DNA of 38,618 nucleotides, taken from UHGV virus genome UHGV-0392077; one strand, given 5' to 3'. Shown here one piece after another: positions 6,126 through 37,898 of the stretch. Below the pieces are notes generated by a model that was given only the letters and a program-made list of their open reading frames with translations, ran no database searches and was not told where the DNA came from. Source of the stretch: a virus. How positions within the stretch are numbered: position 1 is the stretch's first letter; each line of letters starts with the position of its first letter. A program made the position numbers and the translations under genes.

Positions 6126-6710
6126 TTATTGTTTGCTTTTTTCGTTCTGGTTGATGACAAATTCAATGTAACTTTCGATCTTTGCCTTCTCTGTTTCAGG
6201 TAACAATGCGTAGCGCGAGCGATCATAGTTGATAGTCGCAGGGTCGTGCGGGTGAATCAGTAATTCATAGCCGTGACGCCCGAATGCGGATGCAACATTC
6301 TCCAGGGTGGAAATGGAAACGCTGACTTCATTGTTTAACAGGCGGCTGATTGTCACCTGGGCGACGCCGGATGCGCGGTGAAGTTTTCCCTGTGTTGAAA
6401 GGTCGCGGCTTTCGCTCATCCAGCGTTCCAGGTTGTGAGCCGCCAGCTGACCAATGTCGCTTGGGCCGACAGGCTGAAACCCCTCCTGAGAAAGCGAGCG
6501 ATCGATATCAAGCCAGTTACGGGGTTTATTGGCGGCAGCTTCAATTTTTCGCGCAACCTGGTCGCCGATAACCTTCTTGCCAAGAGCCCAGCGGTTTACC
6601 AGATTTGCCTGAGTTCCAAGTTTTTCTGCCATCCGCGTCTGAACACCATTGAATTCACGGTCGATCAAGTCGTTGAGATTTTGCCTGCGGACGTCCTGGA
6701 TACTTTTCAT
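6126..6710 (-). CDS. phage repressor (CI-like), two HTH-like segments, no S24 peptidase domain
   Basis: 194 aa; HTH-like segments GVQTRMAEKLGTQANLVNRWALGKK and GVAQVTISRLLNNE; no Ser/Lys autoprotease signature. Divergent from the Cro-like gene across an operator cluster. Confidence 0.65.
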   Translation of the reverse strand: MKSIQDVRRQNLNDLIDREFNGVQTRMAEKLGTQANLVNRWALGKKVIGDQVARKIEAAANKPRNWLDIDRSLSQEGFQPVGPSDIGQLAAHNLERWMSESRDLSTQGKLHRASGVAQVTISRLLNNEVSVSISTLENVASAFGRHGYELLIHPHDPATINYDRSRYALLPETEKAKIESYIEFVINQNEKSKQ

Positions 6711-16006: not shown

Positions 16007-16083
16007 TGGCGTGGCATGCAGGATTCGAACCTGCGACCAACCGCTTAGAAGGCGGTTGCTCTGTCCAGCTGAGCTAATGCCAC
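16007..16083 (-). tRNA. tRNA-Arg(UCU): tRNA-Arg (anticodon UCU), argU-like, CCA encoded
   Basis: Minus strand folds by hand into a cloverleaf: acceptor GTGGCAT/ATGCCAC, D-arm GCTC...GAGC, anticodon stem ACCGC/GCGGT with loop CTTCTAA (anticodon TCT), T-arm GCAGG-TTCGAAT-CCTGC, discriminator G plus CCA. Resembles E. coli argU as recalled. Confidence 0.8.
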
Positions 16084-30021: not shown

Positions 30022-32496
30022 ATGAGACAGGAATGTATACAAGCGGTCCAGCAGGCGGCGCAGCGCACGTTAACGGCGCGAGAAATACAGAACATTGAAG
30101 ACCGCATTTATCGAAATATGCGCTCCATTGCTCGTGATGACCCGATGTCGTGGAGACAACTTTCCGAATCAGAGCGGCTATATCGTGCAGCACAATTGGC
30201 ATCTGAAGAATTACAGCGAGAAGCGGCATTAAAGAAACGTCGTGTGGCCCTCACTATAGCCGCACGTCAGAGATTGGATAAATTTATCAATAGCTATCAA
30301 GGGGCTGATGGGAAACTTGGCGCTCTTAACCGTACTATTGCTTTTAATGCAGACGGTAAATCGAATTTCCTCTCTGTTGAGTCCAGAACAAAAGCCACTC
30401 GTGATTATGCATTGAGTCAATTGCAAGAGGCATTTGAAGCAGTTGATCCTCGCTTTTTTGGCCTGTTTGAAGATGAAGCTGGCGTGCGTGACTTGGTATA
30501 TGAAATGCGAGGGCAAAATACTGGCAATGCTAAAGCAAGAAAAGGTGCTAAGGCGTGGAGAGAAGTGACAGATCTACTGCGCCGCCGGTTTAATGATGCT
30601 GGTGGGGACATTGGCTATCTCGAAAACTGGGGGATCCCTCAACATCATTCTATGGAAAAGGTTGGGGCGGTATCAAAGGATAAGTGGGTTAGCGATGTTA
30701 TAGGTAAGCTGGATCGCAAATATTATATCCGAGCCGATGGACAACTGATGAACGATGCCGAGTTGTCTGCATTTCTTGGAGAGGCTTATAACACGATCGC
30801 TACTGGTGGGCTGAATAAGCTTACTGATACCGGAATGCGAATTTCCGGCGCACGTGCTAACCGTGGTAATGCATCACGACAGATACATTTCAAAGATGCA
30901 GATTCCTATCTGCAATATCAGCAACTTTATGGCGATCGCTCTCTATGGGAAATCATGGTCGGTCACCTGGAAGGTATCAGTAAAGATATTGCACTGGTGG
31001 AAACATATGGCCCAAACCCCGATCATGTTTTCCGCTCCCTTCTTGATCAGGTTAAGGCAGAAACGGCAACAGCTAACCCGAGTAAAACCGGTAAAGTCGA
31101 GCGGCTGGCGAACAACACAGAGAATCTGTACAACTTTATTTCCGGAAAGACACAGCCTGTAGCGAATCCGCACATCGCGCGATGGTCTGACAATATCCGC
31201 AACTGGCTGGTTGCCAGCAGACTCGGATCCGCGTTGCTGTCATCGTTCTCTGATCTTGGAACCATGTATCTGTCTGCGAAGGTTACCAACCTTCCAATGA
31301 ACCAGTTATTCCGCAACCAACTTGAAGCTATGGACCCAACGAACCGTACAGAACTTGCGCGGGCGCGCCGCGCTGGTCTGGCGATGGAATCTCTACTTGG
31401 CAGCGTTAACCGCTGGGCGATGGATAATATGGGGCCGTCAGTGTCTCGTTGGGCGGCGACGGCGGTAATGCGTGCCAGTGGGCTTACAGCATGGTCAGAT
31501 GCGCACAAGCGCGCCTATGGCGTAACCATGATGGGAAGCCTGGGAGAAGTAGTGTCACGGACACCAGACCTTCGTAGCCTCGATGATTCTGATTTTCGTA
31601 TCCTGAAAAGCAAAGGGATTACTGACACAGACTGGAGCGTATGGAAGCTGGCGCAACAGGAGGACTGGGGGAACGGTAATAATACGATGCTGACACCGGA
31701 AAGCATTATGCGTATCCCTGATTCAGCAGTTAAACATCTTGGTGAGCCTGAACGCGTGAAATTTGAGGCAATGCGTAAACTGCTCGGTGCCGTAACTGAA
31801 GAGGTTGATATGGCTGTTATTACACCGGGAGCACGTGAGCAACTGATAACCGGTTCTGGTATTCAGCGTGGAACATGGAAAGGTGAATTAACGAGAAGTG
31901 TTTTCCTGTTTAAATCGTTCCCTATCTCGGTGGTTATGCGTCACTGGTCACGCGCTATGGGTATGCCGTCTGCTGGTGGGCGTGCGGCATATATTGCGAC
32001 GTTTATTGCCAGTACGACCATTCTTGGCGCTTTGTCGCAGCAACTTAACGACCTTGCGTCTGGTCGTAATCCTCGCGAGATGACAGGAGAAGATGCTGCT
32101 AAATTTTGGCTTGGTGCTCTACTGAAAGGTGGTGGTCTTGGCCTTTACGGTGACTTTTTATTGTCAGATCACACTAGGTACGGAAGCGGCGCGCTGGCAT
32201 CGATGCTTGGCCCGGTAGCTGGTCTGGTTGATGACGTAGTGAAGATTGCTCAGGGCATACCGTTAAATGCTGTGGAAGGGAAGAGTGAGCAGACTGGTGG
32301 TGATCTGATTAAGCTGGGGAAAGGTCTGATGCCAGGTGCGAATCTCTGGTACTTGAAGGCGGCTCTCGATCACATGATCTTTAACCAGATGCAGGAGTAT
32401 TTTTCACCAGGCTATTTGCGTAAAATGGAGCAACGTTCGAAGAAAGAGTTTAACCAGACATACTGGTGGCGACCACAGGATGTCACTCCGCAATAA
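30022..32496 (+). CDS. internal virion / ejection protein (824 aa)
   Basis: Long ORF ending the contiguous plus-strand structural block; hydrophobic segments near residues 650-700. Confidence 0.5.
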   Translation: MRQECIQAVQQAAQRTLTAREIQNIEDRIYRNMRSIARDDPMSWRQLSESERLYRAAQLASEELQREAALKKRRVALTIAARQRLDKFINSYQGADGKLGALNRTIAFNADGKSNFLSVESRTKATRDYALSQLQEAFEAVDPRFFGLFEDEAGVRDLVYEMRGQNTGNAKARKGAKAWREVTDLLRRRFNDAGGDIGYLENWGIPQHHSMEKVGAVSKDKWVSDVIGKLDRKYYIRADGQLMNDAELSAFLGEAYNTIATGGLNKLTDTGMRISGARANRGNASRQIHFKDADSYLQYQQLYGDRSLWEIMVGHLEGISKDIALVETYGPNPDHVFRSLLDQVKAETATANPSKTGKVERLANNTENLYNFISGKTQPVANPHIARWSDNIRNWLVASRLGSALLSSFSDLGTMYLSAKVTNLPMNQLFRNQLEAMDPTNRTELARARRAGLAMESLLGSVNRWAMDNMGPSVSRWAATAVMRASGLTAWSDAHKRAYGVTMMGSLGEVVSRTPDLRSLDDSDFRILKSKGITDTDWSVWKLAQQEDWGNGNNTMLTPESIMRIPDSAVKHLGEPERVKFEAMRKLLGAVTEEVDMAVITPGAREQLITGSGIQRGTWKGELTRSVFLFKSFPISVVMRHWSRAMGMPSAGGRAAYIATFIASTTILGALSQQLNDLASGRNPREMTGEDAAKFWLGALLKGGGLGLYGDFLLSDHTRYGSGALASMLGPVAGLVDDVVKIAQGIPLNAVEGKSEQTGGDLIKLGKGLMPGANLWYLKAALDHMIFNQMQEYFSPGYLRKMEQRSKKEFNQTYWWRPQDVTPQ

Positions 32497-32715: not shown

Positions 32716-33096
32716 ATGAGAAAAGTATTTTTGATTTTTGGATTTATGCTTCTCGTTGGATGCCAGTCAGCTGCACAGTTTGAAAGAAATATGCTTACGT
32801 GGCGTGGGCAGAGTATAGACGCAATGGTTCAGCAGTGGGGGTATCCTCAGGGAGAGCTTACATCTCCAGATGGAAACAGAGTGTATGTTTACTCAAGCTC
32901 TGGTAGTTATAACGTACCACAAACCACAACGTATAATACTACGTCTAATCTAATTGGTAATACTATATATTCAAACACATATGCAACAACTGATGGCGGT
33001 TATACACTCCATTTCAGTTGCTCTGTTTACGTTGAGTTTGGTGCTGATAAGATTATTAAAAATGTTACATGGCGCGGTAATAATTGCGTTGCGTGA
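32716..33096 (+). CDS. lipoprotein (moron; possible superinfection-exclusion factor)
   Basis: Signal peptide MRKVFLIFGFMLLVGC with lipobox LVG|C; AGGGG 6 nt upstream of ATG 32716; conspicuously AT-rich compared with its flanks. Confidence 0.65.
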   Translation: MRKVFLIFGFMLLVGCQSAAQFERNMLTWRGQSIDAMVQQWGYPQGELTSPDGNRVYVYSSSGSYNVPQTTTYNTTSNLIGNTIYSNTYATTDGGYTLHFSCSVYVEFGADKIIKNVTWRGNNCVA

Positions 33097-34113: not shown

Positions 34114-34824
34114 TCAGAAGAACCCAGCCTTGTCGTTGATGTACTCCGCGTGTGTCTGGATATCACGCAGGCATTTGCTCACACCGACGATGTAGCAGAA
34201 CATGGTGGTCAGCTCCGCCGCCGCGCCCGATACGTCGTGCCCGTCTTCCTGTAACTGGTTCAGCAGATTCATCAGCAGTGAGTGCTCCGTCAGGCCGAGA
34301 ACACCAGACGGCGAATGAATCAGGCTACGGTAGCCGGGCTTCAGTGGGGCACTGTAGGTTTTGTTCTCTATCTTCATTGCCTGCATTACTGCTGACGCCG
34401 TGGCGTTGGCTACCTGGTCGGCAACCATCTTTATGCGTTCTTCCTGCGGTAGCGAGTTTTTAATGTAACTTCCGGTGCGGCGGATCTGAGGAAGAACCTC
34501 ACCTGTAACCCATTTGCGAAAGCGGTAGGGGATAGTGCCTGGTGTCACTGCGTCGCGGCAGCGGAGGATCAGTGTGTAGAGGCCTGACTCGGAGATGATG
34601 TTGATCTCTTTTACTCGGCTATCAAAAATTGCACGATGTTCATGCCCTATGTTGAACATAGACCTTTCATCATCATCCAGTTTTTCAAGTGCTTGGGTGA
34701 CGTTTTGGATACGCAGCGCACTACAAACGTCTTGGGCTACAAACCATGGTTGGCCATCGATAATGATGGAACGGATAGGGTTAACAGATTCAAATTTGAA
34801 GATGGCAGTTTGAGCATTAGCCAT
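34114..34824 (-). CDS. ant: antirepressor, Bro-N domain (Ant-like)
   Basis: N-terminus FKFESVNPIRSIIIDGQPWFVAQDVCSALRIQNVTQALEKLDDDE matches the Bro-N / P22 Ant-type domain. ATG 34824 with GGAG upstream. The C-terminal domain is paralogous to gene 35140..35397. Confidence 0.7.
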   Translation of the reverse strand: MANAQTAIFKFESVNPIRSIIIDGQPWFVAQDVCSALRIQNVTQALEKLDDDERSMFNIGHEHRAIFDSRVKEINIISESGLYTLILRCRDAVTPGTIPYRFRKWVTGEVLPQIRRTGSYIKNSLPQEERIKMVADQVANATASAVMQAMKIENKTYSAPLKPGYRSLIHSPSGVLGLTEHSLLMNLLNQLQEDGHDVSGAAAELTTMFCYIVGVSKCLRDIQTHAEYINDKAGFF

Positions 34825-34842
34825 GGTGGTTATCTCCACTTA

Positions 34843-34856
34843 GTGATTTTAATCAC
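34843..34856. promoter_or_regulatory. 14-bp palindrome GTGATTTTAATCAC upstream of ant (candidate operator)
   Basis: Perfect inverted repeat GTGATT/AATCAC, 19 bp upstream of the ant start codon; distinct from the TTACC-N5-GGTAA family. Confidence 0.4.
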
Positions 34857-34979
34857 CACCGCAACGCCAATTACTGGTGGTGAACTGGACAAGGTTGGCG
34901 TACCGGCCTAAGTGGTACCGGCGTCCTTTCGGACCCCTGCCCAGCCCACCATAATTCGGATATGGCTGTGCTTAACGCA

Positions 34980-35003
34980 TAAAAAAACCACGTCTGGCGT
35001 GGT
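34980..35003 (-). terminator. rho-independent terminator after the small LexA-boxed gene
   Basis: Minus strand ACCACG-CCAGA-CGTGGT followed by TTTTTTT. Confidence 0.6.
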
Positions 35004-35093
35004 ATGCGCCACTTAGTAACTCGGGACGCCAATCCCGGCACTGGATTTTGCCAGTACCCGATTACTATGGCACAAGAGGAGTGCGATGTAAAT

Positions 35094-35108
35094 TTACCGC
35101 AAAGGTAA
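35094..35108. promoter_or_regulatory. operator-like palindrome TTACC-gcaaa-GGTAA
   Basis: Between the stop of the small gene and its terminator. Confidence 0.5.
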
Positions 35109-35139
35109 ATATAAGCACTCCACTTGGTAATTGCAAACC

Positions 35140-35397
35140 TTATCTGGTTTGTTTTCGTAATTGTTCGGCACAATAGTCGAGATGTGTTTGCAGATCCTGC
35201 ATAGACATCTGTGAGCTGGTGACGTAGTTAATCAGTGCAGTCAGTTCGGCAAGTGGGCCATCGACATTAAATCCATCCTTATCGAGATCCCGGAGTAATT
35301 TCATCAAGTGCGATCCCTCCACTAGTGATCTGACGCCTCCCGGCGTGTGAATCCTTTCGGTAAATCCGTCTTCCAGTGGATAGTGATACTGCTGCAT
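35140..35397 (-). CDS. small protein (85 aa) paralogous to the Ant C-terminal domain; candidate SOS-inducible antirepressor
   Basis: Aligns by eye with the Ant C-terminus (IHTPGGVRSLVEGSHLMKLLRDLDKDGFNVDGPLAELT...DLQTHLDY versus IHSPSGVLGLTEHSLLMNLLNQLQEDGHDVSGAAAELT...DIQTHAEY). Start set at ATG 35397 because the ORF-track extension to 35520 translates the LexA box. Confidence 0.55.
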   Translation of the reverse strand: MQQYHYPLEDGFTERIHTPGGVRSLVEGSHLMKLLRDLDKDGFNVDGPLAELTALINYVTSSQMSMQDLQTHLDYCAEQLRKQTR

Positions 35398-35416
35398 CTT
35401 ATCTTCTCCATGCAAT

Positions 35417-35436
35417 AACTGTATATTTATACAGTA
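35417..35436. promoter_or_regulatory. LexA (SOS) box
   Basis: AACTGTATATTTATACAGTA is CTGT-N8-ACAG with an AT-rich core, close to the E. coli consensus TACTGTATATATATACAGTA; 22 nt upstream of the small gene's ATG. Confidence 0.7.
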
Positions 35437-35473: not shown

Positions 35474-35488
35474 TTACCCGAAAGGTAA
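35474..35488. promoter_or_regulatory. operator-like palindrome ATTACC-cgaaa-GGTAAT
   Basis: Perfect 17-bp palindrome between the LexA-boxed promoter and the tailspike gene. Confidence 0.5.
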
Positions 35489-35592
35489 TATCTATTCGTA
35501 TTTACAGTCTTTCTATCCATATGTGGTTTTTCAGGTAATAGAATAACCAGATATGCGGCGCAACGGGTGCTGCGACTATCTGGAGATTTAAC

Positions 35593-37416
35593 ATGACGGT
35601 CTCAACCGAAGTTGACCACAACGAATACACAGGTAACGGTGTTACGACATCATTTCCGTATACCTTCCGCATTTTCAAAAAATCCGACTTAGTTGTTCAG
35701 GTGTCTGACCTTAACGGTAACGTAACAGTACTAGTACTGGATACCGGTTATACGGTAACCGGTGCGGGCACTTATAGTGGTGGTGCTGTGGTTCTTCCGT
35801 CGCCTCTTGCGGCTGGTTGGCGTATTACGATAGAGCGCGTGCTTAATGTTGTGCAGAAGACTGACCTTCGCAATCAAGGAAAATTTTTTCCAGAAGTTCA
35901 TGAGGATGCCTTTGACTACCTGACAATGTTGATTCAGAAGTGTTTTGGTTGGTTCCGACGTTCACTGATGAAGCCTTCGTTGCTTGCAAAATATTACGAT
36001 GCAAAACAAAACAGAATTTCTAATCTTGCAGATCCTGGCGTACCACAGGACGCTGTAAATAACCGGTCTATGCGCAACTATGTTGATGCTGCTATAGCTG
36101 GTGTTGTTGGTGGTTATGGATGGTTTATTCAGTATGGTTCTGGGGCTATTTACCGTACATTTCAGGACAAGATGCGTGAAGTTTTTAGTGTAAAAGATTT
36201 TGGCGCTAAGGGGGACGGAGTTACTGATGATACAGCTGCGATTCATACGGCATGTAGTGCATTAAACGATTATTTTTTGGCTGATGGTGTTCGTAGAACA
36301 TTAGTTTTTCCTGACGGTACATATCGCACATCAAGTACTGTTGTGTCTCATCCCAACATGTGCATCCATTGTATTGGTAATGTTATATTTCAGAATGCCA
36401 ATAAGGACGATAAATCATTTGCTGCCTTTGAGATACAAGGAGGTGCACATAAAACAGTATTGGGTGTGATAGATGCATATGGTGTCGGATTCATAGTTAG
36501 AGGTAATACTCATAATATAGAGTTTCAGACCATTAGTAATTGTATTGATGGGTTTGTTATTCGTGCAGATATTAATTGGACTCTTGGCACTAAAAATAGC
36601 TTAGATAATAAAATTACTGGTATCCAAATTGGTAAGTGCACCAACGGAATTGTATTTGAACAGAATGGAGATTCACTTATTCAGCAAGGTAATGAAGTGC
36701 GTGTTAACTTTGTGTCTGAAACAAATAATACTGTTCTGTTTAGAAACTACGATGGGTTTTCTCATACAAAACAATCTAACTGGGATTCTAATTTTATAGA
36801 GCTTATTGCATCAGACCCAACAAAATTACCTGGCTCCTCTATGGTAATGAATACTACAAATTATGGTGTGCCAAACCTTACATTTAATATCACAAACTGG
36901 TGCGGTGGTTGGATTGCAAACGCTGGAACCATATGTCTTATTAGGGGGGCATTTACAACATGTAGATTCATGTTTAACTTGGCTGCAGATGTTGGGGTTA
37001 ATGAGGTTGTTGATTCACGTGGAAAATCATCTTTTGGATCTTGTAAGGTAAGTCTTTGCAGGCAAGGAAACCTCGGAAGCGGCTCTTCTTTTTACACTGC
37101 TGTTACTCCAGGTGATATTTTTAATAATGGAATTGCAGTTAAAAATGATAAATTTAGGATTCGTGTAACCATTCCTGATTTAGCTGCAGGTCAAGTATAT
37201 GGCTCATCTTTCTGGCATGTTCTTGTACAACAATCAGGAACATCAAGGGTGCGACTCGAACAAGTAGCTGGTGCCGTACATTCCAGAAATGGAATTCTTA
37301 TCGAACTCACAGATGCTGGAACAGAATTAGTTGGGATGGTGCGCATATGGGTTAAAAATACAACCCAAGACACTATATCTGCAAGAAATATTGATTTTAT
37401 TGTTTCAGTATCTTAA
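35593..37416 (+). CDS. tailspike / receptor-binding protein with pectate-lyase-like beta-helix (putative depolymerase)
   Basis: GGAG 7 nt upstream of ATG. N-terminus EYTGNGVTTSFPYTF looks like a conserved particle-binding domain; middle carries FSVKDFGAKGDGVTDDTAAIHTA, the hallmark of the pectate-lyase-type right-handed beta-helix; the distal half is AT-rich. Confidence 0.75.
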   Translation: MTVSTEVDHNEYTGNGVTTSFPYTFRIFKKSDLVVQVSDLNGNVTVLVLDTGYTVTGAGTYSGGAVVLPSPLAAGWRITIERVLNVVQKTDLRNQGKFFPEVHEDAFDYLTMLIQKCFGWFRRSLMKPSLLAKYYDAKQNRISNLADPGVPQDAVNNRSMRNYVDAAIAGVVGGYGWFIQYGSGAIYRTFQDKMREVFSVKDFGAKGDGVTDDTAAIHTACSALNDYFLADGVRRTLVFPDGTYRTSSTVVSHPNMCIHCIGNVIFQNANKDDKSFAAFEIQGGAHKTVLGVIDAYGVGFIVRGNTHNIEFQTISNCIDGFVIRADINWTLGTKNSLDNKITGIQIGKCTNGIVFEQNGDSLIQQGNEVRVNFVSETNNTVLFRNYDGFSHTKQSNWDSNFIELIASDPTKLPGSSMVMNTTNYGVPNLTFNITNWCGGWIANAGTICLIRGAFTTCRFMFNLAADVGVNEVVDSRGKSSFGSCKVSLCRQGNLGSGSSFYTAVTPGDIFNNGIAVKNDKFRIRVTIPDLAAGQVYGSSFWHVLVQQSGTSRVRLEQVAGAVHSRNGILIELTDAGTELVGMVRIWVKNTTQDTISARNIDFIVSVS

Positions 37417-37481
37417 AGGGATGAATAAAAATATCTGATGTTACATTGATAATTAATTGGGAAAGATATAATGAATATTAA

Positions 37482-37898
37482 GTGGTGTTTTGTATGTCTG
37501 TAGGTATAACCAGCGAGTCTTTAAACCAATGGCTTAGCATGAGTTCTCTGGTGGCGGTGATAGTTGGAGTTCCTCCTGAGGTTGCTTTGGGGGCTTTGGC
37601 TGGGGCGGTAATTTTTGTTACCTCTGCGGTAGAGTATCCCATTCGTCGTCGTGTACTTTTGTCGATACTTAGCTTTCTCTGCGGACTTCTCTTTTACAAA
37701 CCAGCAGCATCAATTCTTATCGGCATAGCCAGCCTGATCCCTACCATCACGCAGGACTCTTTTGAAAAAGGGATTGTTTTCTCTGCTGGTGCATTCGTGT
37801 CAGCAATTGTTGCTGTGCGTATTGGTATATGGCTCTACCACCGTTCCGATAATCCACGCGAGTTAATTCCGGGGAGAAAAGACGATGGTAGCGCATGA
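37482..37898 (+). CDS. holin-like membrane protein (putative)
   Basis: Several TM helices and a charged C-terminal tail ([18 protein letters not shown]). Start ambiguous: GTG 37482 or ATG 37494. Confidence 0.45.
   Translation: MVFCMSVGITSESLNQWLSMSSLVAVIVGVPPEVALGALAGAVIFVTSAVEYPIRRRVLLSILSFLCGLLFYKPAASILIGIASLIPTITQDSFEKGIVFSAGAFVSAIVAVRIGIWLYHRSDNPRELIPGRKDDGSA

What the first reader, a model, noticed from the sequence alone, without database searches (positions are those of the whole stretch)
35593..37416. Mosaic tailspike: conserved N-terminal anchor fused to an AT-rich pectate-lyase-like depolymerase module, separated from the other virion genes
The gene is separated from the virion operon by the antirepressor block and has its own upstream regulatory region (LexA box and operator site lie between them). 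The N-terminal roughly 100 residues carry a conserved-looking particle-binding motif, and the middle has the FxxKDFGAxGDGxTDDTxAI hallmark of pectate-lyase-type beta-helix enzymes. The distal half is AT-rich, suggesting a recently exchanged receptor-specificity module, likely an O-antigen or capsule depolymerase.
Basis: partly seen in the sequence, partly recalled or inferred. Interest (0 to 1): 0.55.

Follow-up and report, generated by a model that had tools for sequence, protein, structure and literature searches.

The report
Mosaic prophage tailspike, swapped sugar-cutting module
This is the tailspike gene of an epsilon15/phiV10-type prophage of E. coli O4, built from the genus-wide tail-anchoring front end and a rare, AT-rich beta-helix sugar-degrading back end that was swapped in as a cassette; this is a textbook case of tailspike module exchange, not a new kind of system.

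Summary
ORF 35593-37416 (607 aa) is the tailspike of a Uetakevirus-type (epsilon15/phiV10-like) prophage, 100% identical to E. coli O4:H5 CU532-9.

- **Anchor:** residues 1-~185 are the genus anchor, a beta-sandwich plus helical neck homologous to the solved Carin-1/Dpo31 N-terminus. Its DNA is in 492 of 5,426 complete E. coli genomes.
- **Exchange:** homology to sister phages stops at 36207-36245 and resumes at 37493-37507, the holin start. This 1.26-kb cassette has GC 0.37 and GC3 0.24, the lowest in the window, and occurs in only 2 of the 5,426 genomes. Both are O4.
- **Relatives:** homologues (29-71% identity) sit on P22-type, T7-type, P2-type, TSP1/Gp66-type and Mtd-type N-termini.

Corrections:
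- The anchor is about 185-217 aa, not 100.
- Separation from the virion genes is the normal genus layout.
- The LexA box sits 22 nt upstream of the start codon of the leftward antirepressor operon; no tailspike promoter was identified.

Depolymerase activity and O4 specificity are inferred. Verdict: a new member of a known kind, low to moderate interest.

The parts
35593..37416 (+). Tailspike (receptor-binding protein) gene, 607 aa; RefSeq WP_020231251.1, named 'glycosyl hydrolase family 28-related protein'
   Evidence: ORF list. 100% identical in E. coli CU532-9 and GN02350. PHROG tail families phrog_13893 and phrog_1171 match with E 3e-138 and 2e-111.
35593..35847 (+). Anchor domain D1 (aa 1-85): predicted beta-sandwich that docks the spike on the tail
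   Evidence: Part of the aa 1-179 match (E 2e-32) to the Dpo31/Carin-1 tail fibre, PDB 28lx and 8ck1. Foldseek hit 8ck1_B, 43% identity over 123 alignment columns. Strands E2-83 in the model. The Dpo31 D1 beta-sandwich is residues 8-87 (PMC13317679).
35851..36141 (+). Helical neck (aa 87-183), probably a trimeric coiled coil; it completes the conserved anchor
   Evidence: Helices H87-174 in the model, with low pLDDT as expected for a monomer prediction. Aligns to the Dpo31 D2 three-helix coiled-coil region. Many PHROG tail families match aa 1-166 only.
36184..36243 (+). N-cap motif FSVKDFGAKGDGVTDDTAAI (aa 198-217): start of the beta-helix and the commonest left recombination junction
   Evidence: Regex match. 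Start of the PF12708 hit. DNA homology to most E. coli relatives ends at gene nt 636-654. The same motif is matched in GH55 glucanases, AlgE epimerases and GVE2 ORF18.
36184..37002 (+). Right-handed parallel beta-helix (aa ~198-470), the presumed glycan-binding and cleaving body
36604..36816 (+). Conserved acidic cluster D338, E368, D398, D408 in motifs LDN, QQGNE.RVNF, SNWDSN and ASDP; candidate catalytic centre
   Evidence: D338, D398 and D408 are invariant and E368 is 92% conserved in 38 homologues of 29-70% identity. D338, E368 and D398 are spaced 30 residues apart, at or just before strands 340-347, 368-375 and 401-408. Assigning catalysis to them is inference.
37003..37413 (+). C-terminal beta-rich domain (aa ~471-607); function unassigned, possibly trimer stabilisation or extra glycan contacts
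   Evidence: Strands E485-606 with pLDDT about 72-95. Conserved in homologues (R490, H542, G581, N589). No Pfam hit and no Peptidase_S74 chaperone domain.
36246..37506 (.). Exchanged cassette: receptor-binding module, its stop codon, the 77-nt spacer and the first bases of the holin gene
   Evidence: blastn homology to phiv142-3, ZX5 and phiV10 ends at 36245, 36207 and 36004 and resumes at 37507, 37507 and 37493. A GC change-point falls at 37510. This stretch is found in only 2 of 5,426 complete E. coli genomes, even with the distant blastn mode.
35419..35434 (.). LexA box CTGTATATTTATACAG, 22 nt upstream of the start codon of the leftward 85-aa gene
   Evidence: Exact match. Position relative to the ATG at 35397 on the - strand. 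Conserved in phiv142-3 and ZX5, and with three changes in the spacer between the intact CTGT and ACAG arms in phiV10.
35474..35488 (.). Operator-like palindrome TTACCCGAAAGGTAA; a second copy lies at 35094-35108
   Evidence: 15 sites in the window against 0.67 expected, clustered in intergenic control regions.
35140..35397 (-). 85-aa gene (homologue of epsilon15 p19 and phiV10 p24), first gene of the LexA-controlled leftward operon; paralogue of the C-terminal domain of the antirepressor
   Evidence: RefSeq CDS WP_001188252.1. 42% identity to aa 155-228 of the BRO-N protein, E 2e-15.
34873..35057 (-). isrK (34981-35057) and C4 antisense RNA (34873-34956), between the 85-aa gene and the antirepressor
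   Evidence: Rfam hits of 63.5 and 66 bits, both above their gathering scores.
34114..34824 (-). BRO-N antirepressor
   Evidence: Pfam Bro-N, E 1e-19. The corresponding ZX5 ORF4, in the same position, promotes the lytic cycle when overexpressed (PMC9782041).
35542..35588 (+). Hairpin in the tailspike leader that overlaps the Shine-Dalgarno sequence
   Evidence: Inverted repeat I1. RNA fold of 35500-35610: -31 kcal/mol, z = -2.8. The sequence is invariant in phiV10, ZX5 and phiv142-3. Function not tested.
37494..37898 (+). Holin (Phage_holin_8), first gene of the lysis cassette and the right-hand crossover site
   Evidence: Pfam E 3e-11. Homology to sister phages resumes here.

Best explanation
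The gene encodes the single tailspike of a temperate epsilon15/phiV10-type podovirus (Uetakevirus-like) that is integrated beside yfgI, where related phages insert at guaA, in an E. coli O4 lineage.

How it is built (shown by homology and modelling):
- Residues 1-~85 form a beta-sandwich and residues ~87-183 form a helical, presumably trimeric, neck. Together they are the genus-wide anchor that fixes the spike to the tail.
- From the KDFGAKGDGxTDD N-cap onwards (aa ~198-470) the chain forms a right-handed parallel beta-helix. A beta-rich C-terminal domain follows (aa ~471-607).

How it was assembled (shown by comparison):
- The receptor-binding part, window 36246-37506, was brought in by recombination. 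The left crossover lies in or next to the conserved N-cap motif. The right crossover lies at the start of the conserved holin gene.
- It replaced whatever module the ancestor carried. Its low GC3 (0.24) points to a source with lower GC than both the phage backbone and E. coli.

What it does (inferred):
- Like the P22, Sf6, HK620 and epsilon15 tailspikes, the trimer binds a surface polysaccharide and cleaves it endolytically along the beta-helix. The conserved acidic cluster D338/E368/D398/D408 would act as a glycoside-hydrolase centre. This lets the virion work down to the outer membrane.
- The most likely substrate is the O4 O-antigen. Its gene cluster in the host encodes the dTDP-L-rhamnose genes (rfbBDAC) and UDP-L-FucNAc-type genes (fnlA, wbjC, wecB).

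Expression (inferred): the gene is transcribed with the downstream lysis genes. The adjacent LexA box and operator control the divergent antirepressor operon.
For: Identity and context:
- 100% DNA match to a prophage in E. coli O4:H5 CU532-9 and in GN02350.
- Same gene order as phiV10, phiv142-3 and ZX5, all classified as Uetakevirus.

Anchor:
- More than 15 PHROG tail families match only aa 1-166 up to 1-234.
- E 2e-32 to the solved Dpo31/Carin-1 tail fibre N-terminus.
- The anchor DNA is in 492 of 5,426 complete E. coli genomes.
- Pas et al. 2023 used the first 205 aa of the phiV10 receptor-binding protein as the anchor query (PMC10408124).

Beta-helix:
- PF12708 hit above its cutoff.
- AlphaFold model with pLDDT above 90 over most of aa 200-607.

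Exchange:
- Homology breakpoints at 36207-36245 and 37493-37507, with flanks about 83-99% identical.
- The cassette is in 2 of 5,426 genomes and in none of 50,697 phage records by tblastn at E <= 1e-5.
- Homologues of 29-71% identity carry Tail_spike_N (11), T7_tail (4), P22 Head_binding (3), P2-type Phage_tail_fib (3) and Mtd_N (1) N-termini.
- These homologues sit in P22-like, lambdoid siphovirus, E217/phiTE-like and P2-like myovirus, and other Uetake-like genomes.

Composition:
- GC 0.371 and GC3 0.242 in the module, against 0.446 and 0.372 in the anchor and GC 0.489 for the window.
- Homologous modules elsewhere have GC3 of 0.39-0.54, so the bias is not intrinsic to the protein family.

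Catalysis: D338, D398 and D408 are invariant and E368 is 92% conserved.

O-antigen:
- Both complete genomes with the module carry O4 wzx/wzy, which only 36 of 5,426 genomes have.
- A 42%-identical homologue in a P. aeruginosa prophage is followed directly by an Acyl_transf_3 gene. This matches the arrangement in phiV10, where the O-acetyltransferase gene oac follows the tail fibre gene.
Against: - No enzymatic or binding data exist for this protein or for any member of its receptor-module family. The family is small: 30 clusters at E <= 1e-30 among 1.84 billion representatives.
- There is no sequence-level match to any solved structure beyond the N-cap.
- The catalytic residues were chosen from conservation and spacing only. 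Model coordinates could not be inspected.
- The O4 association rests on two complete genomes that carry the identical prophage at the same site. The exact protein was at that same site in the five assemblies whose flanks were read (24 contigs were read; the index lists it in 539 blocks), so the link may simply be clonal.
- A 71-76-aa gene follows the module in five of seven other phage contexts but is absent here. If it is an obligatory partner, function could be affected.
- Only a monomer was modelled, so trimerisation is assumed by analogy.
Confidence: 0.8

Rival explanations
1. The module is a depolymerase for a capsule (K antigen) or another exopolysaccharide, not for the O4 O-antigen. The O4 association would then be a by-product of clonal descent of the lysogen.
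For: - Structural neighbours include many capsule depolymerases: Depo32, Kp7 gp51, KP32gp38, K5 lyase and Acinetobacter tailspikes.
- A Klebsiella Uetakevirus, ZX1, is reported with capsule depolymerases (PMC9505181, abstract listed).
- In Pas et al., the receptor-binding protein of phiv142-3 occurs across several O serogroups, which suggests some Uetakevirus spikes target non-O receptors.
- The prophage sat at the same chromosomal site in the five assemblies whose flanks were read, which is consistent with one lineage.
Against: - Both complete genomes with the module are O4, at a background frequency of 36 in 5,426.
- Characterised E. coli and Salmonella members of the genus (epsilon15, phiV10) use O-antigen. 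Pas et al. find a clear link between Uetake- and Lederbergvirus prophage receptor-binding proteins and host serogroup.
- A homologue in P. aeruginosa is followed by an Acyl_transf_3 gene, in the position the O-antigen acetylase oac occupies in phiV10.
- The K type of the hosts was not examined.
Confidence: 0.2
2. The beta-helix is a non-catalytic binder, or it uses another chemistry (lyase, epimerase or deacetylase) instead of glycoside hydrolysis.
For: - There is no hit to GH28 proper (PF00295) or to any family with known catalytic residues.
Against: - Three invariant Asp and one 92%-conserved Glu lie in conserved motifs on neighbouring parts of the predicted helix, across homologues down to 29% identity. 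This is the usual signature of tailspike endoglycosidases such as D339/E372 in HK620, whose mutant structures appear among the hits.
- The host O4 gene cluster lists rhamnose and FucNAc-type pathway genes. From memory, the O4 repeat unit has no uronic acid; if so, beta-elimination has no substrate there.
Confidence: 0.12
3. The tailspike has its own SOS-controlled and repressor-controlled promoter. The LexA box and operator would then regulate rightward transcription of the tailspike and lysis genes.
For: - The operator palindrome at 35474-35488 lies between a TTGCAA and a TATCTA hexamer on the + strand, read directly from the sequence.
- The 200 nt upstream of the gene are almost invariant among phages whose coding sequences are only about 85% identical.
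- In ZX5, overexpressing the repressor cuts holin and endolysin transcripts by more than 99.9% (PMC9782041).
Against: - The LexA box is 22 nt from the start codon of the leftward gene and 158 nt from the tailspike ATG.
- The consensus scan finds no rightward sigma-70-like promoter between 35398 and 35592.
- The leftward transcript carries isrK, C4 and a BRO-N antirepressor. An SOS-derepressed antirepressor is a coherent arrangement and resembles the LexA-controlled Tum of phage 186 and the c4-ant region (immI) of P1; both parallels are from memory.
- The drop in lysis transcripts in ZX5 is equally explained by a general block of the lytic cascade.
Confidence: 0.1
4. The AT-richness of the distal part reflects the amino-acid composition of beta-helices or local mutational bias, not foreign origin. 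The gene would then be an old, vertically inherited allele.
For: - The anchor is also somewhat below the window average (GC 0.446 against 0.489).
- The unrelated receptor module of phiv142-3 is also AT-rich (GC3 0.258).
Against: - The bias is strongest at synonymous third positions (GC3 0.242).
- Homologous modules in other phages have GC3 of 0.39-0.54.
- The compositional edge at 37510 coincides with the homology breakpoint at 37507.
- The flanks are about 83-99% identical to sister phages, while the cassette does not align at all with phiv142-3, ZX5 or phiV10.
Confidence: 0.04

Closest known systems
Tail fibre/tailspike of Escherichia phage phiV10 (gp25) and Salmonella phage epsilon15 (gp20); sister prophage receptor-binding proteins of phiv142-3 and vB_EcoP_ZX5 (genus Uetakevirus)
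   Same: - Same gene position: after the leftward antirepressor block and the p19/p24-like small gene, before the holin-endolysin cassette.
- Same N-terminal anchor: about 83-90% DNA identity over the first 412-653 nt, and a near-identical upstream region.
   Different: - The receptor-binding part does not align with any of them.
- The protein is shorter: 607 aa against 709-1,039 aa.
- No seroconversion gene follows it, unlike oac in phiV10.
Tailspike modularity and horizontal transfer between Uetakevirus, Lederbergvirus and lytic phage genera (Pas, Latka, Fieseler and Briers 2023, PMC10408124)
   Same: - A conserved anchor with an exchangeable receptor-binding domain.
- The same receptor-module family is seen here on a P22-type head-binding domain in an E. 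coli prophage, at 66% identity.
- A conserved sequence motif sits at the junction.
- The prophage receptor-binding protein matches the host serogroup.
   Different: - O4 is not among the serogroups named in that paper's abstract (O2, O8, O16, O18, 4s/O22, O77, O78, O26, O45, O103, O104, O111, O145, O157).
- This module has no representative in 50,697 deposited phage genomes.
Dpo31 tailspike of marine podovirus Carin-1 (PDB 28lx, 28mg, 8ck1; PMC13317679)
   Same: - The N-terminal beta-sandwich D1 plus three-helix coiled-coil D2 align to aa 1-179 (E 2e-32).
- Same overall plan: anchor, neck, then a beta-helix carrying the depolymerase activity.
   Different: - The beta-helix bodies show no significant sequence match beyond the N-cap motif.
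- Dpo31 has an inserted Ig-like subdomain and a cleaved C-terminal D4 domain, for which no counterpart was found here.
P22, Sf6 and HK620 tailspike endoglycosidases (O-antigen-specific beta-helix hydrolases)
   Same: - Right-handed parallel beta-helix followed by a C-terminal beta domain.
- Conserved acidic residues on successive rungs.
   Different: - Sequence identity is only 6-14%.
- The anchor differs: there is no PF09008 head-binding domain.
- The substrate and the catalytic residues are not established.
Pfam PF12708 Pect-lyase_RHGA_epim, annotated by RefSeq as 'glycosyl hydrolase family 28-related'
   Same: The N-cap motif and the first rungs match the profile above threshold.
   Different: - No hit to GH28 proper (PF00295) at E <= 1.
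- The RefSeq name is a superfamily label, not a functional assignment.

Membership tests
Uetakevirus (epsilon15/phiV10-type) tailspike | N-terminal anchor homologous to the first ~205 aa of phiV10 gp25 / epsilon15 gp20 | tested here: met
   - DNA identity of 81.6% (megablast, gene nt 1-176) and 82.7% (blastn, an alignment running from upstream of the gene to gene nt 412) to phiV10.
- 84-88% over gene nt 1-536 to 1-653 to phiv142-3, ZX5 and HEMP4; 73% over the first 350 nt to epsilon15-like Salmonella phages.
- phrog_13893 E 3e-138.
Uetakevirus (epsilon15/phiV10-type) tailspike | Gene position: downstream of the leftward antirepressor block, upstream of the holin - GH19 endolysin - DUF2514 lysis cassette, in a ~39-kb temperate podovirus genome | tested here: met
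   The annotated regions of CU532-9, phiv142-3, ZX5 and phiV10 are collinear.
Uetakevirus (epsilon15/phiV10-type) tailspike | Physically part of the virion, as six trimeric spikes on the tail | not testable with these tools
   Needs virion proteomics or cryo-EM of the induced phage.
Pectate-lyase superfamily beta-helix (Pfam PF12708) | Profile match above the curated threshold | tested here: met
   43.8 bits against a cutoff of 27, aa 198-390. 33 of 38 homologues also match.
Pectate-lyase superfamily beta-helix (Pfam PF12708) | Right-handed parallel beta-helix fold | tested here: met
Glycoside hydrolase family 28 proper | Match to the GH28 profile (PF00295) with its conserved catalytic Asp motifs | tested here: not met
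Tailspike depolymerase (enzymatically active receptor-binding protein) | Demonstrated cleavage of a host surface polysaccharide | not testable with these tools
   There is only indirect support: invariant D338, D398 and D408, and E368 at 92%.
Tailspike depolymerase (enzymatically active receptor-binding protein) | Homotrimer | not tested
   Only a monomer was modelled. The low-confidence helical neck is consistent with a coiled coil that needs partner chains.
Lederbergvirus (P22-type) tailspike | N-terminal head-binding domain PF09008 | tested here: not met
   No hit in this protein. It is present in the homologues P0003, P0004 and P0012, which share only the receptor-binding module.
Tailspikes/fibres with a C-terminal intramolecular chaperone (Peptidase_S74) | C-terminal auto-cleaving chaperone domain | tested here: not met
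   No such Pfam hit at E <= 1.
O4-specific receptor-binding protein subtype | Carriage restricted to, and activity on, serogroup O4 | tested here: inconclusive
   Both of the 2 complete genomes with the module have O4 wzx/wzy, against a background of 36 in 5,426. They carry the identical prophage at the same site, so they are not independent. The serogroups of hosts carrying the homologous modules are unknown.

The most novel reading that the evidence does not exclude
The receptor-binding module would represent an uncharacterised family of tailspike glycosidases. The family is small (about 30 clusters at 50% identity in 1.84 billion proteins) and has no solved structure and no isolated-phage representative. 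It would be specific for the L-rhamnose/L-FucNAc-containing O4 antigen of extraintestinal pathogenic E. coli. It would travel as a cassette, often with a conserved 71-76-aa partner gene of unknown function, between at least five different tail architectures.
Probability: 0.35. Interest if true: 0.4.

Novelty: new member of a known kind. Interest (0 to 1): 0.25.

Why it matters
The biology here is ordinary. Modular tailspikes with a conserved anchor and a horizontally exchanged beta-helix receptor module are well documented, and specifically for this phage genus.

The practical value is modest:
- The module is a candidate O4-specific receptor-binding domain. The serogroup-specific receptor-binding protein subtypes named in the abstract of Pas et al. 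2023 do not include O4.
- Such domains are used for serotyping reagents, for engineered tailocins and for retargeting phages. O4 strains include strains from human blood and stool.

The clean breakpoints, at the N-cap motif and at the holin start, also give a usable recipe for grafting modules onto this anchor.

Tried and rejected
1. Donor of the AT-rich module.
   - There is no tblastn hit at E <= 1e-5 in 50,697 phage records.
   - There is no second allele in 5,426 complete E. coli genomes, even with the distant blastn mode.
   - The nearest protein is 71% identical and sits in a GC-richer siphovirus prophage.
   - All homologous modules examined have a higher GC3 than this one.
   - The donor remains unknown.
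2. Solved structure or characterised enzyme for the beta-helix body. Single-sequence and profile searches of the PDB match only the N-cap and the anchor.
3. Serogroup of hosts that carry the 66%-identical module on a P22-type anchor.
4. Rightward promoter for the tailspike. The consensus scan found none between the LexA box and the ATG, so the question stays open.
5. Function of the 71-76-aa gene that accompanies the module elsewhere. There are only sub-threshold hits (PF21825, E 4e-4; phrog_774, E 2e-3) and no match in phage records.
6. O4 repeat-unit structure. It could not be retrieved from the text of the O-antigen review. The sugar content is therefore inferred from the gene cluster annotation and from memory.
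7. Inspection of model coordinates, to check that the conserved acids line one groove. The coordinates are not exposed to scripts.
Full report
**What is at the coordinates.** The window is a prophage. The ORF 35593-37416 (+, 607 aa) starts at an ATG preceded by GGAG. It is 100% identical at DNA level to a gene in two complete genomes: E. coli O4:H5 strain CU532-9 (stool) and strain GN02350 (blood). RefSeq names it 'glycosyl hydrolase family 28-related protein', WP_020231251.1. The exact protein is listed in 539 blocks of the assembly collection. All named copies are from E. coli, and in the five places whose flanks were read it sits at the same chromosomal site beside yfgI.

**Genome context.** The gene order matches that of Escherichia phages phiV10, phiv142-3 and vB_EcoP_ZX5, all classified as Uetakevirus. 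The order is:
- large virion and ejection genes ending at 32496;
- a + strand lipoprotein ORF;
- a leftward block of DUF2335, a hypothetical gene, a BRO-N antirepressor and a small gene;
- this gene;
- two holins, a GH19 endolysin and DUF2514.

So the separation of the tailspike from the virion operon is real, but it is the standard layout of the genus.

Each one checks out, with corrections.
- The motif FSVKDFGAKGDGVTDDTAAI is present at aa 198-217. It starts the only Pfam match above threshold, PF12708 at aa 198-390 with 43.8 bits against a cutoff of 27.
- GC is 0.446 for gene nt 1-650 and 0.371 for nt 651-1824, against 0.489 for the whole window. Only 0.5% of the 1,174-nt windows sampled are as low in GC as the distal part, and the lowest of them lies inside it.
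- GC3 drops from 0.372 in codons 1-218 to 0.242 in codons 219-607 (Fisher p = 0.001).
- A perfect LexA box, CTGTATATTTATACAG, lies at 35419-35434.
- A palindrome, TTACCCGAAAGGTAA, lies at 35474-35488. It is one of 15 TTACC-N5-GGTAA sites in the window against 0.67 expected, and these cluster in intergenic control regions. It is very probably the operator of the prophage repressor.

**The anchor.**
- More than fifteen PHROG tail protein families match only the N-terminus, from aa 1-166 up to 1-234. The best are E 3e-138 and 2e-111. None matches the rest of the protein.
- The first ~650 nt of the gene occur at roughly 80-90% identity in 492 of 5,426 complete E. coli genomes.
- Residues 1-179 match the N-terminus of the marine podovirus Carin-1 tailspike Dpo31 (E 2e-32; PDB 28lx, 8ck1). 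Foldseek aligns the model to the tail-bound fragment 8ck1_B at 43% identity.
- In Dpo31 this region is a beta-sandwich D1 (residues 8-87), followed by a linker and a two-part three-helix coiled coil D2 (PMC13317679).
- The AlphaFold model shows the same order. Strands span aa 2-83. Long helices span aa 87-174, with low confidence as expected for a trimeric neck modelled as a monomer.
- The anchor is therefore about 185 aa of structure, not about 100. Pas et al. likewise used the first 205 aa of the phiV10 receptor-binding protein as the anchor query (PMC10408124).

**The receptor-binding module.**
- From aa ~190 to 607 the model is confident, with pLDDT mostly above 90. Short strands recur in rungs from aa ~235 to ~465, followed by a beta-rich C-terminal domain.
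- The top Foldseek hits in the PDB are the Sf6 and HK620 tailspikes. The viral structure library returns tail fibres and spikes.
- Sequence identity to all of these is 6-18%. Sequence and profile searches of the PDB match only the N-cap.
- There is no hit to GH28 proper and none to a C-terminal chaperone domain.
The fold alone does not decide between hydrolase, lyase and binder.
- Among 38 homologues of 29-70% identity, D338, D398 and D408 are invariant and E368 is 92% conserved. They lie in the motifs LDN, QQGNE.RVNF, SNWDSN and ASDP. D338, E368 and D398 are 30 residues apart, at or just before strands 340-347, 368-375 and 401-408.
- I take this cluster as the likely acid/base centre of an endoglycosidase. 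That step is inference.

**Evidence for exchange.**
- blastn of the window against sister phages shows about 83-99% identity in the flanks.
- Homology ends at 36245 (phiv142-3), 36207 (ZX5) and 36004 (phiV10). It resumes at 37507, 37507 and 37493, which is the start of the holin gene at 37494.
- Most E. coli relatives break at gene nt 636-654, immediately after the GDGxTDD motif. Their own, different modules also carry this motif. The conserved N-cap therefore acts as the left crossover patch and the holin start as the right one.
- A two-change-point GC segmentation puts the right edge at 37510.
- The cassette 36246-37506 occurs in only 2 of 5,426 complete genomes, even with the distant blastn mode. 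It has no tblastn match at E <= 1e-5 in 50,697 deposited phage genomes.
- In the 5.8-billion-protein collection the module has about 46 clear homologues at 35-71% identity. An exhaustive scan of 1.84 billion cluster representatives finds only 30 at E <= 1e-30.
- The homologues carry different N-termini: Tail_spike_N (11 of 38), T7 tail fibre N-terminus (4), P22 head-binding domain (3), P2-type tail-fibre N-terminus (3) and Mtd_N (1). Homology to this protein begins at aa ~183-200.
- Their contexts are varied:
  - a P22-like E. coli prophage;
  - a lambdoid siphovirus prophage;
  - an E217/phiTE-like myovirus;
  - a P2-like myovirus, with the module at the gpH position;
  - two other Uetake-like genomes;
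  - a P. aeruginosa siphovirus prophage.
- The low GC3 is not a property of the family. The homologous modules have GC3 of 0.39-0.54. This allele therefore probably came from, or spent a long time in, a lower-GC background. No donor was found, and 'recent' cannot be quantified.

**Which receptor.**
- The host CU532-9 carries an O4 cluster with rfbBDAC, fnlA-wbjC-wecB, three glycosyltransferases, and O4-family wzx and wzy.
- O4 wzx/wzy occur in 36 of 5,426 complete genomes, and both genomes with the module are among them.
- This fits the rule, documented for this genus, that the prophage tailspike matches the host serogroup (PMC10408124).
- The two genomes carry the identical prophage at the same site, so they are not independent.
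- A 42%-identical homologue in P. aeruginosa is followed by an Acyl_transf_3 gene. phiV10 has the same arrangement, with the O-acetyltransferase gene oac after its tail fibre gene. This is further indirect support for O-antigen.
- Capsule or another exopolysaccharide remains a live alternative, at about 0.2.

**Regulation.**
- The LexA box is 22 nt upstream of the ATG (35397, - strand) of an 85-aa gene.
- On the same strand follow isrK (34981-35057) and C4 antisense RNA (34873-34956), both above their Rfam gathering scores, and then the BRO-N antirepressor.
- The 85-aa protein is 42% identical to the C-terminal 74 residues of that antirepressor.
- This reads as an SOS-controlled antirepressor operon. 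It resembles the c4-ant region (immI) of P1 and the LexA-controlled Tum of phage 186; both parallels are from memory.
- The ZX5 counterpart of the BRO-N protein promotes the lytic cycle when overexpressed (PMC9782041).
- No rightward consensus promoter was found upstream of the tailspike.
- The ~200 nt upstream of the tailspike are almost invariant among phages whose coding sequences differ by about 15%. They include a stable hairpin overlapping the Shine-Dalgarno sequence.
- Whether the operator also gates rightward transcription is unresolved.

**Verdict.** The finding is real and essentially correctly interpreted. It is a mosaic tailspike made of the Uetakevirus anchor and an exchanged, AT-rich beta-helix receptor module that probably depolymerises the O4 antigen.
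- Tailspike mosaicism of this kind is well documented, including for this genus, and the protein is already annotated in RefSeq at superfamily level.
- What is new is only the member itself. It belongs to an uncharacterised receptor-module subtype with no isolated-phage representative and no solved relative, and it is plausibly specific for O4.
- Interest is low to moderate.

Noticed in passing
window 34114-35434, - strand: An SOS-controlled antirepressor operon: LexA box (35419-35434) -> 85-aa gene (35397-35140) -> isrK (35057-34981) -> C4 antisense RNA (34956-34873) -> BRO-N antirepressor (34824-34114). The 85-aa protein is 42% identical to the C-terminal 74 residues of the antirepressor (E 2e-15). 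It resembles the c4-ant region (immI) of P1 combined with LexA control as in phage 186 Tum (both from memory).
   Followed up: partly
window 934, 5992, 6054, 6766, 6814, 9053, 9115, 13243, 13261, 16406, 34014, 35094, 35474, 35706, 37618 (15-nt sites): The palindrome TTACC-N5-GGTAA occurs 15 times (up to 1 mismatch) against 0.67 expected. Most copies lie in intergenic control regions. Pairs flank the 194-aa leftward ORF 6126-6710, which is possibly the repressor gene (not checked). This is probably the operator of the prophage repressor.
   Followed up: partly
window 35500-35592: The tailspike leader folds into a stable hairpin (35542-35588; -31 kcal/mol for 35500-35610, z = -2.8) that overlaps the Shine-Dalgarno sequence. 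The ~200 nt upstream of the gene are nearly invariant in phiV10, ZX5 and phiv142-3, although the coding sequences are only about 85% identical.
   Followed up: partly
L006:7653-7868, L009:9744-9959, L008:7831-8061, L012:8840-9055, L013:8933-9160: A conserved 71-76-aa helical protein of unknown function directly follows the homologous receptor module. The only family hits are sub-threshold (PF21825 crAss001_48, E 4e-4). It is present in five phage backgrounds: P22-like, lambdoid siphovirus, Uetake-like, E217/phiTE-like myovirus and P2-like myovirus. It is absent from this window, from L019 and from L020. It may be a travelling partner, such as an assembly factor, of this module family.
   Followed up: partly
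window 32716-33096, + strand: A 126-aa ORF with a lipoprotein signal (LVGC lipobox) and low GC (~0.40) sits between the last virion gene and the leftward block. It has no Pfam hit and is a candidate moron or superinfection-exclusion lipoprotein. phiv142-3 and phiV10 have different genes at this position.
   Followed up: no
window 16010-16083, - strand: A tRNA gene lies inside the prophage (Rfam tRNA, 71.7 bits).
   Followed up: no
L011:110-1864 (host CU532-9, outside the window): The O-antigen chain-length regulator gene wzzB of the O4 host is split by an IS1 insertion. This might alter O-antigen length in this lysogen.
   Followed up: no
L016:7293-8408: In one assembly (GCA_964045775.1) an IS1 element has inserted in the prophage lysis cassette. 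It truncates the second holin, and the endolysin and DUF2514 genes are missing. This is a sign of prophage decay in part of the lineage.
   Followed up: no
L020:5928-6962: In a P. aeruginosa siphovirus prophage, the 42%-identical homologue of the module is followed on the opposite strand by an Acyl_transf_3 gene. This matches the arrangement in phiV10, where oac follows the tail fibre gene, and it hints that the module family targets O-antigens.
   Followed up: no
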